Origin: Eledone cirrhosa
Taxonomy: Eukaryota
Assembly (NCBI GenBank): GCA_964016885.1
Contig: OZ024740.1
Location: 89,466,001-89,530,000 of the forward strand
Length of the DNA: 64,000 bases
Direction of reading: 5' to 3'
Notes under the pieces: model-generated
The model's database searches: none
Seen by the model: the letters and a program-made list of their open reading frames with translations, nothing else
Told to the model about the DNA's origin: nothing
Position numbers and translations under genes: made by a program
Shown: positions 6,236 to 51,046 of the stretch, one piece after another
Position numbering within the stretch: position 1 is the first letter of the stretch
How the letters are laid out: the number at the start of each line of letters is the position of its first letter

Positions 6236-6396
6236 TATAGATATAATGCTCTGAAATAGCGATATATATGTGAAGACAAACATAGAATATTCGAAAATAT
6301 TCTGTATGTTTATAATAAACATTTCGAAGACCCAATCGCTATAGAATAGAATACGTCACGTATTACAATTTGAGATTCTCGATAAAAGCAAGGGAA

Positions 6397-6439
6397 GTAA
6401 CCTACGCGTTTCATTCTCATTAGAAATCATCAGGATTAC
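6397..6439 (-). ncRNA. Type I hammerhead ribozyme (identical copies at 6709-6751 and 7021-7063, minus strand)
   Basis: Reverse complement reads GUAAUC-CUGAUGA-U UUCU AAUG AGAA U-GAAA-CGCG-UA/GGUUAC, with a 6-bp stem I and palindromic stem III ACGCGU. Confidence 0.85.
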
Positions 6440-7234
6440 ATATCCAGTGCTTTTATCGAGAATGACACAGCTAGAGACTTATAGAATACTTAGCTGTGTA
6501 CAGGAACCGGTTTGAAAGAGCGGTTGCCGGCCCGGCAGAAATTAGAATTTGGATATAATGCTCTGAAATAGCGATATATATGTGAAGACAAACATAGAAT
6601 ATTCGAAAATATTCTGTATGTTTATAATAAACATTTCGAAGACCCAATCGCTATAGAATAGAATACGTCACGTATTACAATTTGAGATTCTCGATAAAAG
6701 CAAGGGAAGTAACCTACGCGTTTCATTCTCATTAGAAATCATCAGGATTACATATCCAGTGCTTTTATCGAGAATGACACAGCTAGAGACTTATAGAATA
6801 CTTAGCTGTGTACAGGAACCGGTTTGACAGAGCGGTTGCCGGCCCGGCAGAAATTAGAATTTGGATATAATGCTCTGAAATAGCGATATATATGTGAAGA
6901 CAAACATAGAATATTCGAAAATATTCTGTATGTTTATAATAAACATTTCGAAGACCCAATCGCTATAGAATAGAATACGTCACGTATTACAATTTGAGAT
7001 TCTCGATAAAAGCAAGGGAAGTAACCTACGCGTTTCATTCTCATTAGAAATCATCAGGATTACATATCCAGTGCTTTTATCGAGAATGACACAGCTAGAG
7101 ACTTATAGAATACTTAGCTGTGTACAGGAACTGGTTTGAAAGAGCGGTTGCCGCTCTTTCAAACCAGTTCCTGTACACAGCTAAGTATTCTATAAGTCTC
7201 TAGCTGTGTCATTCTCGATAAAAGCACTGGATAT

Positions 7235-7277
7235 GTAATCCTGATGATTTCTAATGAGAATGAAACGCGTAGGTTAC
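7235..7277 (+). ncRNA. Type I hammerhead ribozyme (inverted-arm copy)
   Basis: gtaatc CTGATGA tttctaatgagaat GAAA cgcg TA ggttac. Confidence 0.85.
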
Positions 7278-7429
7278 TTCCCTTGCTTTTGTCGAGAATC
7301 TCAAATTGTAATACTTGACGTATTATATTCTATAGCGATTGGGTCTTCGAAATGTTTATTATAAACATACAGAATATTTTCGAATATTCTATGTTTGTCT
7401 TCACACATATATATATATATATATATATA

Positions 7430-8112
7430 TGTGTATGTTTTGAAACAGTTTTTTACTAAATCAAGTTTAATCTGATAATGGGGTTTACAATCCTCAGATA
7501 AATGGAAAAAGATGAGTATTGACGAACATGGGAGTCGAACCCAGATATTTGGTTATCCAGACCACTGTGCTGCCATTTACAGTATAAATGACAAGTAAGT
7601 ATGTTTTGAAACTGTGAGCAGGTTTGAAATAAAAAAAATAGAATAGCTTTCACCCTACTTTTTAACTAAAGTAATTTTAGTCTGATAATGGGGTTTATAA
7701 CCCTCAGATGAATGGAAAAAGATGAGTATTGAAGTGGATCGACTCCCATGTACGTCAATACTCATCTTTTTCCATTTATCTGAGGGTTCTAAACCCCATT
7801 ATCAGACTAAAATTTCTTTAGTAAAAAAATATGGTGAAAGCCATTCTATTTTCTAATTTCAAACCTGCTCACAGTTTCAAAACATACTTACTTGTCATTT
7901 ATACTCGCTAAGAATGTAGCTTCTAATTTGAATGGCAGGAGATGGGTGATGTGTTGGTGTAAATGGTAGCACAGTGGTCTGGATAACCAAAGATGTGGAT
8001 CGACTCTCATGTACGTCAATAGTCATCTTTTTCCATTTATCTGAGGGTTCTAAACCCCTTTATCAGACTAAAATTTATTTCGTCAAATAATACGGTGAAA
8101 GCTATTCTATTA
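7430..8112 (+). mobile_element. Fold-back/tandem repeat (261-bp period) containing a tRNA-like gene, between (TA)n tracts
   Basis: gtggatcgact recurs at 7734 and 7995. 7430-7733 is an inverted copy of the same unit. A related fold-back copy lies at 52433-52800. Confidence 0.75.
7948..8018 (+). tRNA. tRNA-like sequence (pseudo-tRNA or SINE head), apparent anticodon GGA with short variable loop
   Basis: Acceptor stem GATGTGT/GTACGTC, D arm GTGT-AAATGGTA-GCAC, anticodon arm TGGT-CTGGATA-ACCA. The B box is intact (GGTTCGACTCC) in the minus copy near 7520-7582. A T-run lies about 10 nt downstream. Confidence 0.55.

Positions 8113-50049: not shown

Positions 50050-50055
<6 letters not shown>
48433..50055 (+). 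mobile_element. Fold-back HHR element: arms of about 720 bp (48433-49163 and 49182-49893), 18-nt loop, tail to 50055
   Basis: Near-identical reverse-complement arms, mirrored ORFs 48946-49173 and 49178-49381, and (TA)n flanks. Confidence 0.92.
49733..49838 (+). ncRNA. Hammerhead-like motif with CCGAAGA core and expanded stem II
   Basis: gct CCGAAGA tctgactggt..accagttcagt GAAA caaatg TA agc. The inverted arm carries the same C4. Confidence 0.6.
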
Positions 50056-50112
<57 letters not shown>

Positions 50113-50121
<9 letters not shown>

Positions 50122-51039
50122 ATGTAAATATAATGTATTTTGCAATACACTTTATGCTTAATTAAAAGCATTTTGAAGACCGTAAGCTATTGTTTTAAAG
50201 AAGTGACAAATTCACTCACTTCGATCTCAGCAAACAGGAGGTGATAAGCCGACATGACATGTTTCGCTTTTGTTGAAGCTTATCAAGGCCAACTACCCCG
50301 CCCGTCTGCTGAGATCAATGATGTTATATTCTTATAGAAATCTAGTAAATAATCAGGAGCTGATTATGCAGAGCGATTGTTGGTCAGGCTATTTCAGAGC
50401 TACAATTCTAATTTTTAATTTCTGCCTGACCAACAACCGCTCTGCATAATCAGCTCCTGATTATTTACTAGATTTCTATAAGAATATAACATCATTGATC
50501 TCAGCAGACGGGCGGGGTAGTTGGCCTTGATAAGCTTCAACAAAAGCGAAACATGTCATGTCGGCTTATCTCCTCCTGTTTGCTGAGATCGAAGTGAGTG
50601 AATTTGTCACTACTTTAAAACAATAGCTTACGGTCTTCAAAATGCTTTTAATTAAGCATAAAGTGTATTGCAAAATACATTATATTTACATCCATATATA
50701 TATTGCTATTTCAGAGCTACAATTCTAATTTTTACTTTCTGCCTGACCAACAACCGCTCTGCATAATCAGCTCCTGATTATTTACTAGATTTCTATAAGA
50801 ATATAACATCATTGATCTCAGCAGACGGGCGGGGTAGTTGGCCTTGATAAGCTTCAACAAAAGCGAAACATGTCATGTCGGCTTATCTCCTCCTGTTTGC
50901 TGAGATCGAAGTGAGTGAATTTGTCACTACTTTAAAACAATAGCTTACGGTCTTCAAAATGCTTTTAATTAAGCATAAAGTGTATTGCAAAATACATTAT
51001 ATTTACATCCATATATATATTGCTATTTCAGAGCTACAA

Positions 51040-51046
<7 letters not shown>
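50113..51046 (+). mobile_element. Retrozyme-like array: inverted arm plus two tandem 317-bp HHR monomers and a partial third, in (TA)n
   Basis: gctatttcagagc at 50388, 50705 and 51022 (period 317). 50113-50389 is inverted. Confidence 0.9.
50523..50566 (+). ncRNA. Type I hammerhead ribozyme, U3-A8 core variant (copies 50840-50883 plus, 50247-50290 minus)
   Basis: ggcc TTGATAA gctt caacaa aagc GAAA catgtcatg TC ggct, nested in the outer stem gatctcagcagac/gtttgctgagatc. Confidence 0.8.

What the first reader, a model, noticed from the sequence alone, without database searches (positions are those of the whole stretch)
50113..51046. Homologous 317-bp retrozyme-like array whose HHR shows a compensatory C3-G8 to U3-A8 swap
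Seen: this unit shares landmarks with the 312-bp unit: ATATATAT.GCTATTTCAGAGC, AATTCTAAT..TTCTGCC, CAACCGCTCT and GGTCTTC.AAATG. Its HHR stems have a completely different sequence that still pairs, and the core reads UUGAUAA in all three copies. Known: positions 3 and 8 form a Watson-Crick tertiary pair in the active hammerhead, and U3-A8 is a functional rare natural variant. Inference: two diverged subfamilies of one element kept the ribozyme by covariation, which points to selection on self-cleavage. Searches requiring CUGANGA would miss this family. The stem III reading ACAU-guc-AUGU (a CATGT duplication) might allow cleavage as a monomer.
Basis: partly seen in the sequence, partly recalled or inferred. 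Interest (0 to 1): 0.88.

Follow-up and report, generated by a model that had tools for sequence, protein, structure and literature searches.

The report
Retrozyme whose ribozyme core flipped twice
This is a young copy of a small non-coding jumping repeat of a known kind that carries a predicted self-cutting RNA motif with an already described variant core pair, and its many thousands of older relatives in the genome show that this pair was likely swapped away and then back again while the motif stayed intact.

Summary
Observation confirmed. The 317-bp unit is homologous to the 312-bp unit (61% identity; score 119 against shuffles of -38±13). It holds a type I hammerhead with core UUGAUAA in all three copies, one of them inverted.

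It is a non-LTR retrozyme: 488 exact-motif units in a superfamily of over 24,000. Core counts: C3-G8 19,596; U3-A8 4,524; mixed 78+71. A tree with both bases masked needs 2-3 double switches and rejects one U3-A8 origin (AU p 0.0002). Copy ages suggest U3-A8, then C3-G8, then U3-A8 again, so 317 did not take its core from 312. A U3·G8 twig moved to three loci.

Stem III is an inherited palindrome, not a CATGT duplication, and points to dimer cleavage. Insertions carry Penelope marks: inverted arms, (TA)n targets, and a tail at one end in 31 of 32.

U3-A8 is in print, and Penelope-like elements in this genome carry it too. This scan already noted U3-A8 retrozymes and two-armed insertions elsewhere in this genome; I found no note of the reversal. 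Cleavage and expression are untested.

The parts
50052..50119 (.). (TA)n tract, left side of the target site
   Evidence: 3' ends of most young copies abut TA runs
50110..50389 (-). Inverted arm: one 5'-truncated unit (positions 37-316) whose 3' end stops at the unit's own ATATAT run, without tail; joined to the + arm over a 2-nt GC overlap
50247..50290 (-). Hammerhead copy in the inverted arm (U3 at 50286, C17 at 50251)
50388..50704 (+). Full 317-bp monomer 1
50498..50597 (+). Long rod that extends helix I and encloses the hammerhead; 15 pairs, 10 with changes on both sides across 47 relatives
50523..50566 (+). Type I hammerhead: helix I GGCC/GGCU, core U3 U4 G5 A6 U7 A8 A9 (50527-50533), helix II GCUU/AAGC with loop CAACAA, G12-A15.1, helix III ACAUGUCAUGU (50551-50561), predicted cut after C17 (50562)
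50705..51021 (+). Full 317-bp monomer 2, hammerhead core at 50844, C17 at 50879
51022..51046 (+). 25-nt tail beyond the internal ATATAT run: second fixed 3' end, Penelope-type tail
   Evidence: PMC8557442, PMC11167929
51047..51131 (.). (TA)n tract, right side of the target site
6240..7412 (.). Related 312-bp array (about 2.9 units on -, inverted arm 7151-7412 on +) with C3-G8 core, U10.1.U11.1, helix III ACGCGU, GUA site; a separate lineage of the same superfamily

Best explanation
The array is one recent insertion of a non-coding 317-nt retrozyme with a type I hammerhead that has a U3-A8 core; the RNA is predicted to self-cleave, likely as a dimer, and is likely copied into (TA)n repeats by a borrowed Penelope-like reverse transcriptase/endonuclease. 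Shown: the hammerhead fold with covariation, hundreds of near-identical dispersed copies, back-to-back arms with two fixed 3' ends, and exclusion of mixed 3-8 cores from all large subfamilies. Inferred mechanism: (1) tandem transcripts are cut at GUC once per unit, two adjacent hammerheads pairing through the palindromic helix III; (2) monomers are ligated to circles, as shown for coral, mussel and axolotl retrozymes; (3) a Penelope-like protein cuts both strands of a TA tract and primes two cDNAs at two internal sites about 25-30 nt apart, one per strand; (4) each cDNA runs through the cut site for one to many rounds, and the truncated 5' ends are joined. Inferred history: one source lineage went U3-A8, then C3-G8, then U3-A8 again, and the 317 family is its youngest tip; the 312 family holds C3-G8 on a separate long branch.
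For: Copies: 892 candidate places, 40 scored, 172 matches, most full-length ones 98-100% identical; 488 units with the exact 35-nt core-to-GUC motif, reversed control 0. Core table with a shared upstream landmark: C3-G8 19,596, U3-A8 4,524, C3-A8 78, U3-G8 71; reversed controls 0, 0, 2, 0. Structure on 47 chosen relatives: 92% of cells paired, 21 of 28 pairs with double changes, covariation 0.50 against 0.27 shuffled and at most 0.12 when slid; all 4+4 pairs of helices I and II show double changes; two loop II adenines are invariant. Tree of 100 representatives with 3 and 8 masked: 3 changes; 2 without the hammerhead columns; one U3-A8 clade rejected, AU p 0.0002 and 0.0003. End branches lengthen with distance from the 317 tip, 0.009 to 0.096 (rho 0.60, n 97, rows not independent). 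Sister groups across each switch differ at only 7-16 other sites. Insertions: 14 of 19 distinct complete 317 loci and 18 of 26 312 loci are inverted; 13 of 14 and 18 of 18 have a tail at exactly one end; no listed 3' end lies at the ribozyme cut site. This matches PLE inverted copies and tails (PMC8557442) and two internal RT start sites with extension of both strands (PMC11167929). RT plus GIY-YIG elements ending in TA tracts are present, one with a 938-aa open frame between two pLTRs.
Against: No cleavage or RNA data exist for this family. In the 53-nt hammerhead region the predicted minimum-energy fold is an alternative rod (-10.3) rather than the hammerhead (-5.9 kcal/mol), and helices I and III had pair probability near 0 in the linear two-unit transcript (tertiary contacts not modelled). 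Only 1 of 9 predicted Xenopus retrozyme dimers cleaved in vitro, and an Anolis PLE did not need its hammerhead for insertion in vitro. A U3.G8 twig was copied to three loci, so the pair is not strictly needed for every jump. No sequence similarity linked the retrozyme to the pLTR of any of 50 GIY-YIG loci, so the partner is unidentified. The tree has no outgroup; direction rests on copy age. The 312 branch is long (0.37) and its place changes when the hammerhead is left out. The 3-8 pair is 100% paired by choice of rows, so that row is no test.
Confidence: 0.82

Rival explanations
1. The core was not changed by two point mutations in turn; the 6-nt core was swapped in one step by template switching or gene conversion from another U3-A8 or C3-G8 hammerhead RNA packaged by the same enzyme.
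For: At the second switch position 7 also changes (mostly G to U), so three of six adjacent bases differ on a branch with only 7 other diagnostic changes. UUGAUAA donors exist: the older grade and one Penelope-like family. No large intermediate subfamily was found at either switch.
Against: Helices I, II and III on both sides of the core are continuous with the parent subfamily, so a tract would be under about 10 nt. Position 7 varies freely among C3-G8 subfamilies (T, G, A). At the first switch position 7 is unchanged. A mobile U3.G8 intermediate exists.
Confidence: 0.25
2. The template is an uncleaved linear multimer read through from an existing array, not a circle; the hammerhead is kept for another step (5' end definition, stability, release from host transcripts).
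For: cDNAs pass through the cut site. For the Anolis PLE unprocessed RNA was the main substrate in vitro.
Against: Variants inside an array are mostly private to single units, and a few locus-wide variants lie in both arms (L031, L054, L071), as expected from repeated copying of one short template. Circles are shown for other animal retrozymes. The unit folds as a stable circle, z -4.9.
Confidence: 0.2
3. The hammerhead cleaves mainly as a monomer because helix III has four base pairs.
For: Four pairs with a GUC loop can be drawn. Mussel and coral retrozymes with longer helix III cleave as monomers.
Against: Helix III stays self-complementary to within 0-2 nt of the centre in 74 of 89 parsed representatives, through changes such as AGCU, GGCC and GUC in the would-be loop; a monomer loop would not need this. 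The hairpin is unstable alone (0.0) and the self-duplex is -10.5 kcal/mol.
Confidence: 0.3
4. An ordinary satellite or decayed repeat in which the hammerhead-like motif is a chance or dead relic.
For: No RNA evidence; Rfam score below gathering.
Against: Dispersed short arrays on many contigs, strong covariation, mixed cores at 0.6% only, fixed insertion ends.
Confidence: 0.03

Closest known systems
Metazoan non-LTR retrozymes (Cervera and de la Pena 2020, PMC7229834; Li, Clavereau and Pollet 2026, bioRxiv 10.64898/2026.07.22.740005)
   Same: Non-coding tandem units of about 300 bp, low GC, one type I hammerhead per unit, stable predicted circle, thousands of copies, co-occurring with PLEs. 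The 312 type has the U.U at the base of helix II seen in axolotl HHR_Amex2.
   Different: U3-A8 core; long fully palindromic helix III; back-to-back arms with one tail in (TA)n; a time-ordered series of subfamilies with a core reversal. None of these was seen in the parts of the two papers that I read. RNA and cleavage are not shown here.
Natural U3-A8 hammerheads (Perreault et al. 2011, PMC3088659; Schistosoma mansoni Cercyon PLE minimal hammerheads, about 1,300 hits, Cervera and de la Pena 2014, PMC4209133)
   Same: The same compensated 3-8 pair, described as natural covariation and active in vitro.
   Different: Those are scattered or minimal motifs; here it is a full type I motif with extended helix I in a tandem retrozyme, with both states and the transitions kept in one lineage.
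Endonuclease-bearing Penelope-like elements (Craig et al. 2021, PMC8557442; Anolis PAc, Frangieh et al. 2024, PMC11167929)
   Same: Inverted 5'-truncated copy, tail at one end, microsatellite and AT-rich targets, two internal start sites, hammerhead in the repeat.
   Different: No ORF; tail 21-31 nt; no detectable sequence match to the pLTRs sampled. PAc showed no strand difference in start site in vitro, whereas here the two arms almost always use different ends.
Dolichopoda pDo500 satellite hammerhead (Martinsen et al. 2010, PMC2837043, abstract only)
   Same: Phylogenetic footprint of selection with compensatory stem changes in a tandem repeat.
   Different: There the core was nearly invariant; here the core pair itself switches.

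Membership tests
Type I hammerhead ribozyme | Core YUGANRA / GAAA / UH with helices I-III, helix I open | tested here: met
   U3-A8 in place of C3-G8
Type I hammerhead ribozyme | Covarying helices | tested here: met
   21 of 28 pairs with double changes; slid controls far lower
Type I hammerhead ribozyme | Rfam gathering score | tested here: not met
   HH9 31.1 bits against 52, E 4e-6; none at gathering in the window
Type I hammerhead ribozyme | Loop I - loop II tertiary contact | tested here: inconclusive
   Two loop II adenines invariant and an upstream U at 90% or more in 47 rows; the contact itself not modelled
Type I hammerhead ribozyme | Self-cleavage at C17 | not testable with these tools
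   needs an in vitro assay
Non-LTR retrozyme | Tandem 150-450 bp units, GC under 50%, one type I hammerhead each, non-coding | tested here: met
   no ORF of 120 aa or more overlaps the array
Non-LTR retrozyme | Many dispersed genomic copies | tested here: met
Non-LTR retrozyme | Expressed as linear and circular unit-length RNA | tested here: inconclusive
   no run on record as RNA was available
Non-LTR retrozyme | Long target-site duplication when present | tested here: inconclusive
   target is (TA)n, so a duplication cannot be told
PLE-mobilised non-autonomous element | Inverted 5'-truncated copy and a tail at one end | tested here: met
   31 of 32 inverted loci
PLE-mobilised non-autonomous element | Autonomous PLEs with matching target in the genome | tested here: met
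   10,595 GIY-YIG candidates, 150 scored; RT+GIY-YIG 938 aa with pLTRs ending in TA
PLE-mobilised non-autonomous element | Sequence similarity to a partner's pLTR | tested here: not met
   profile of 100 monomers hit none of the pLTRs in 50 GIY-YIG loci at E 5; only 50 of 150 listed places examined
Autonomous PLE | RT and GIY-YIG ORF | tested here: not met

The most novel reading that the evidence does not exclude
The genome holds a dated fossil series of one ribozyme: a single retrozyme lineage swapped the catalytic 3-8 pair from U-A to C-G and back to U-A by stepwise point mutation, crossing the valley through a still-mobile U.G wobble core, while helices I-III were rewritten around it and helix III was kept palindromic for dimer cleavage. 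It would be direct in vivo evidence that self-cleavage is selected for Penelope-driven mobility, and a ready-made natural mutant series for testing how tertiary pairs evolve.
Probability: 0.45. Interest if true: 0.65.

Novelty: new variant of a known kind. Interest (0 to 1): 0.48.

Why it matters
Why Penelope-like elements and retrozymes keep hammerheads is open: PMC8557442 calls the function unclear, and the Anolis element did not need it in vitro (PMC11167929). Here over 24,000 genomic units show both paired states amplified and mixed states nearly absent, across at least two independent switches, which is comparative evidence for selection on the active core during mobilisation. The ordered subfamilies give natural ancestors, intermediates (U3.G8) and descendants to assay. 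Searches fixed on CUGANGA would lose about 19% of this superfamily. The element type and the core variant are both already in print, which limits the surprise.

Tried and rejected
RNA evidence: no RNA holder listed. Runs X1 and X2 each hold a 317-type contig that closes on itself (347 nt in X1), but they also hold the 312 type at 6.5 and 12 times the depth, in the same direction as genomic copy number, so I read them as trace DNA, not as circles. CATGT duplication: rejected, intermediates show substitution from ACAGAGCTCTGT and ACAAGGCCTTGT types. Single origin of U3-A8: rejected. Partner search: no long ORF joined to the unit among 198 loci, no pLTR similarity in 50 GIY-YIG loci. The pattern aimed at the U3.G8 twig had a gap one base too long and missed it; it returned 6 U3-A8 units of a neighbouring twig, so the twig's full U3-A8/U3.G8 ratio is not counted. 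Secondary-structure prediction did not favour the hammerhead fold in monomer or linear dimer; my pair indices for the long rod in that script were off and that line is not used. Look-up of earlier notes by sequence returned nothing. Literature searches found no paper on a U3-A8 tandem retrozyme or on a reversal of the 3-8 pair; the library lacks most subscription journals, and supplements of PMC7229834, PMC4209133 and the bioRxiv preprint were not seen and may list such families.

Full report
1. Observation. The region holds one 5'-truncated unit on the - strand (50110-50389), two full 317-bp units on + (50388-51021) and a 25-nt tail (51022-51046), flanked by (TA)n. Each copy carries a type I hammerhead: helix I GGCC/GGCU, core UUGAUAA, helix II GCUU/AAGC, GAAA, helix III ACAU/AUGU, GUC with C17 at 50562, 50879 and 50251 (-). 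The 312-bp unit has CUGAUGA, a U.U at the base of helix II, ACGCGU and GUA. The monomers align at 200 of 326 columns, score 119 against -38±13 (max 7) for 1000 shuffles; the ends carry most of the signal and the hammerhead segment alone is reached by 1 of 1000 shuffles. Both units fold as circles well below shuffles (z -4.9 and -4.0). Rfam HH9 scores 31.1 bits, E 4e-6, under gathering.

2. A young family in a large superfamily. G000 is a 3.0-Gb genome; I did not identify the organism (an earlier scan note calls it octopus-type). The 317 unit gave 892 candidate places, 40 scored, with mostly 98-100% identical copies on several contigs; the exact core-to-GUC motif occurs 488 times. With a shared upstream landmark and the GAAAC box, whole-genome counts are C3-G8 19,596, U3-A8 4,524, C3-A8 78 and U3-G8 71; reversed controls gave 0, 0, 2 and 0. 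About 18,000 of the C3-G8 units appear to be 312-like, since only 1,555 have the other background. These count units, not events, and only units that keep the exact landmarks. By my reading of the two full lists, 16 of the 149 mixed cores are of 312 background, and nearly all the rest are single diverged copies; about 1% per site in older families fits decay after insertion (median end branch 0.04). One row (L169) looks like a chance match. In the 317 background I saw one C3-A8 unit and no U3-G8.

3. Covariation. On 47 representatives chosen from 73 with paired cores, 92% of cells pair, 21 of 28 pairs change on both sides, the covariation score is 0.50 against 0.27 in shuffles and 0.08-0.12 with slid partners; every pair of helices I and II shows double changes. 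Relatedness inflates the shuffle test, the structure was drawn from the window copy, and the 3-8 row is paired by selection of rows.

4. History of the 3-8 pair. From 666 extracted units I kept 616 near-full, 217 distinct, 100 representatives at 95%, with positions 3 and 8 masked. The tree is a ladder: an older U3-A8 grade, a C3-G8 grade, then a second U3-A8 grade ending in the 317 family; the 312 family sits on a long branch (0.37) inside the older grade. Three changes are needed; two if the hammerhead columns are removed (bootstrap range 2-3); one U3-A8 clade is rejected both ways (AU p 0.0002 and 0.0003). There is no outgroup, but mean end branch rises from 0.009 near the 317 tip to 0.096 in the far U3-A8 grade (rho 0.60, 97 rows, 312 rows left out), which orders the ladder in time: U3-A8, then C3-G8, then U3-A8. 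The first 100 listed units of a pattern enriched for the older grade are almost all U3-A8. Across each switch the neighbours differ at 7-16 other sites and the helices are continuous, so the change happened in place; a very short conversion tract is not excluded, since position 7 also changed at the second switch. Three loci (L165, L219, L220) share a diagnostic background and have U3.G8 in 7 of 8 units: a wobble core was retrotransposed at least three times. It is a side twig within the younger U3-A8 grade, not the node of a switch.

5. Helix III. It is not a CATGT duplication. Relatives read ACAGACTGT, ACAGAGATCTGT, ACAGAGCTCTGT, ACAAGGCCTTGT, ACAAGTCTTGT and ACATGTCATGT. In 74 of 89 parsed representatives (11 of 100 not parsed) the arms pair to within 0-2 nt of the centre, more than a hairpin can use. 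The 317 helix gives a -10.5 kcal/mol self-duplex and no stable hairpin alone. Palindromic helix III and dimeric cleavage are described for metazoan hammerheads (PMC4209133; axolotl, PMC7229834). Monomer cleavage stays possible. Against activity in general: an alternative rod is predicted to be more stable than the hammerhead fold (-10.3 against -5.9).

6. Mode of insertion. Of 19 distinct complete 317 loci (from 30 top hits) 14 are back-to-back; of 26 312-type loci (from 60) 18 are. In 13 of 14 and 18 of 18, one arm ends at the unit's ATATAT run and the other carries a 21-31 nt tail. One of the 13 (L019) has its tail-less end cut by an assembly gap; the exception (L007) has flanks that are themselves reverse complements, so it looks like part of a larger fold-back. 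No listed 3' end falls at the ribozyme site (unit position 175), so cDNA passes through it. PLE insertions are described with an inverted truncated copy and a 30-40 bp tail at one end, with microsatellite bias (PMC8557442); the Anolis PLE protein cuts and extends both strands and starts at two internal sites that bound the tail (PMC11167929). Variants within arrays are mostly private to one unit; three 312 loci have a variant in all or nearly all units of both arms, consistent with repeated copying of one template.

7. Partner. GIY-YIG gave 10,595 candidates. [quoted passage not shown] One family (L268, L271, L315) has an internal AT run followed by a tail of about 30 nt, the same geometry as the retrozyme. 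None matched the retrozyme profile, so the partner is unnamed.

8. Expression. No run on record as RNA was listed; see Tried and rejected.

9. Comparison and novelty. The element meets the sequence criteria of non-LTR retrozymes (PMC7229834, passages and parts 2-3 of 6; bioRxiv 10.64898/2026.07.22.740005, parts 1-3 of 5, supplements closed). U3-A8 is in print as natural covariation, active in vitro (PMC3088659, passages and section 8) and in about 1,300 Schistosoma PLE motifs (PMC4209133, five passages). Also seen: PMC8557442 (12 passages), PMC11167929 (parts 1-2 of 4), PMC7151607 (one passage), PMC2837043 (abstract). Searches showed no report of a U3-A8 tandem retrozyme or of a reversal of this pair. 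Earlier notes of this scan describe other U3-A8 retrozymes (320, 591 bp), two-armed insertions and U3-A8 pLTRs in this genome; I had reached those readings before the look-up, and none listed mentions the reversal. Hammerhead numbering and the expected role of loop II adenines are recalled knowledge.

10. Verdict. A real, young retrozyme of a known kind with a known core variant. What is added is the time-ordered series with at least two double switches of the 3-8 pair, a mobile U.G intermediate and a helix III kept palindromic. Interest 0.48; novel case probability 0.45, interest 0.65 if true.

Noticed in passing
L298 (G000:C1:145870300-145876600), also L299, L307, L309: Apparently intact Penelope-like element, 938-aa RT plus GIY-YIG frame between two pLTRs, each with a U3-A8 minimal hammerhead (UUGAAAA, helix III ACCGGU); copies end in TA tracts at two positions about 75 nt apart.
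   Followed up: partly
L268, L271, L287, L290, L315: A second Penelope-like family with a UUGAUAA minimal hammerhead 390-500 nt after the ORF; several copies have an internal AT run plus a tail of about 30 nt, the same end geometry as the retrozyme. Candidate partner by geometry only.
   Followed up: partly
L165, L219, L220: Small subfamily with a U3.G8 wobble core in 7 of 8 units at three separate loci.
   Followed up: partly
L220:1974 (+) and L271: Another, unrelated repeat with a UUGAGAA (U3-A8) hammerhead core, helix II GCCC/GGGC.
   Followed up: no
L219 (- strand, 340 from the end), L136:2826-2930, L277, L294, L303, L316: Further hammerhead families with C3-G8 cores outside this superfamily.
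   Followed up: no
L168:1500-1654: Distant relative of the superfamily (E 2e-6) with core UUGACGA; possible outgroup.
   Followed up: no
G000:C2:207687142-207701654: Long array of 317-family units with mixed spacings of about 304, 316 and 620 bp, unlike the short two-armed insertions; may be a secondary DNA-level expansion.
   Followed up: no
L006-L009 (G000:C4:358.177-358.179 Mb): 317 array with a tail at both ends whose flanks are reverse complements of each other (a Penelope-like fragment); a larger fold-back.
   Followed up: partly
window 7440-8110: Inverted repeat next to the 312 array with a tRNA-like segment (Rfam tRNA 29.9 bits at 7948-8018); may be a SINE-like fold-back.
   Followed up: no
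old U3-A8 grade, e.g. L108, L199, L243, L248: Helix II opens with an A.A or C.A mismatch at 10.1-11.1; it becomes A-U with the switch to C3-G8 and G-C later, while the 312 family has U.U.
   Followed up: partly
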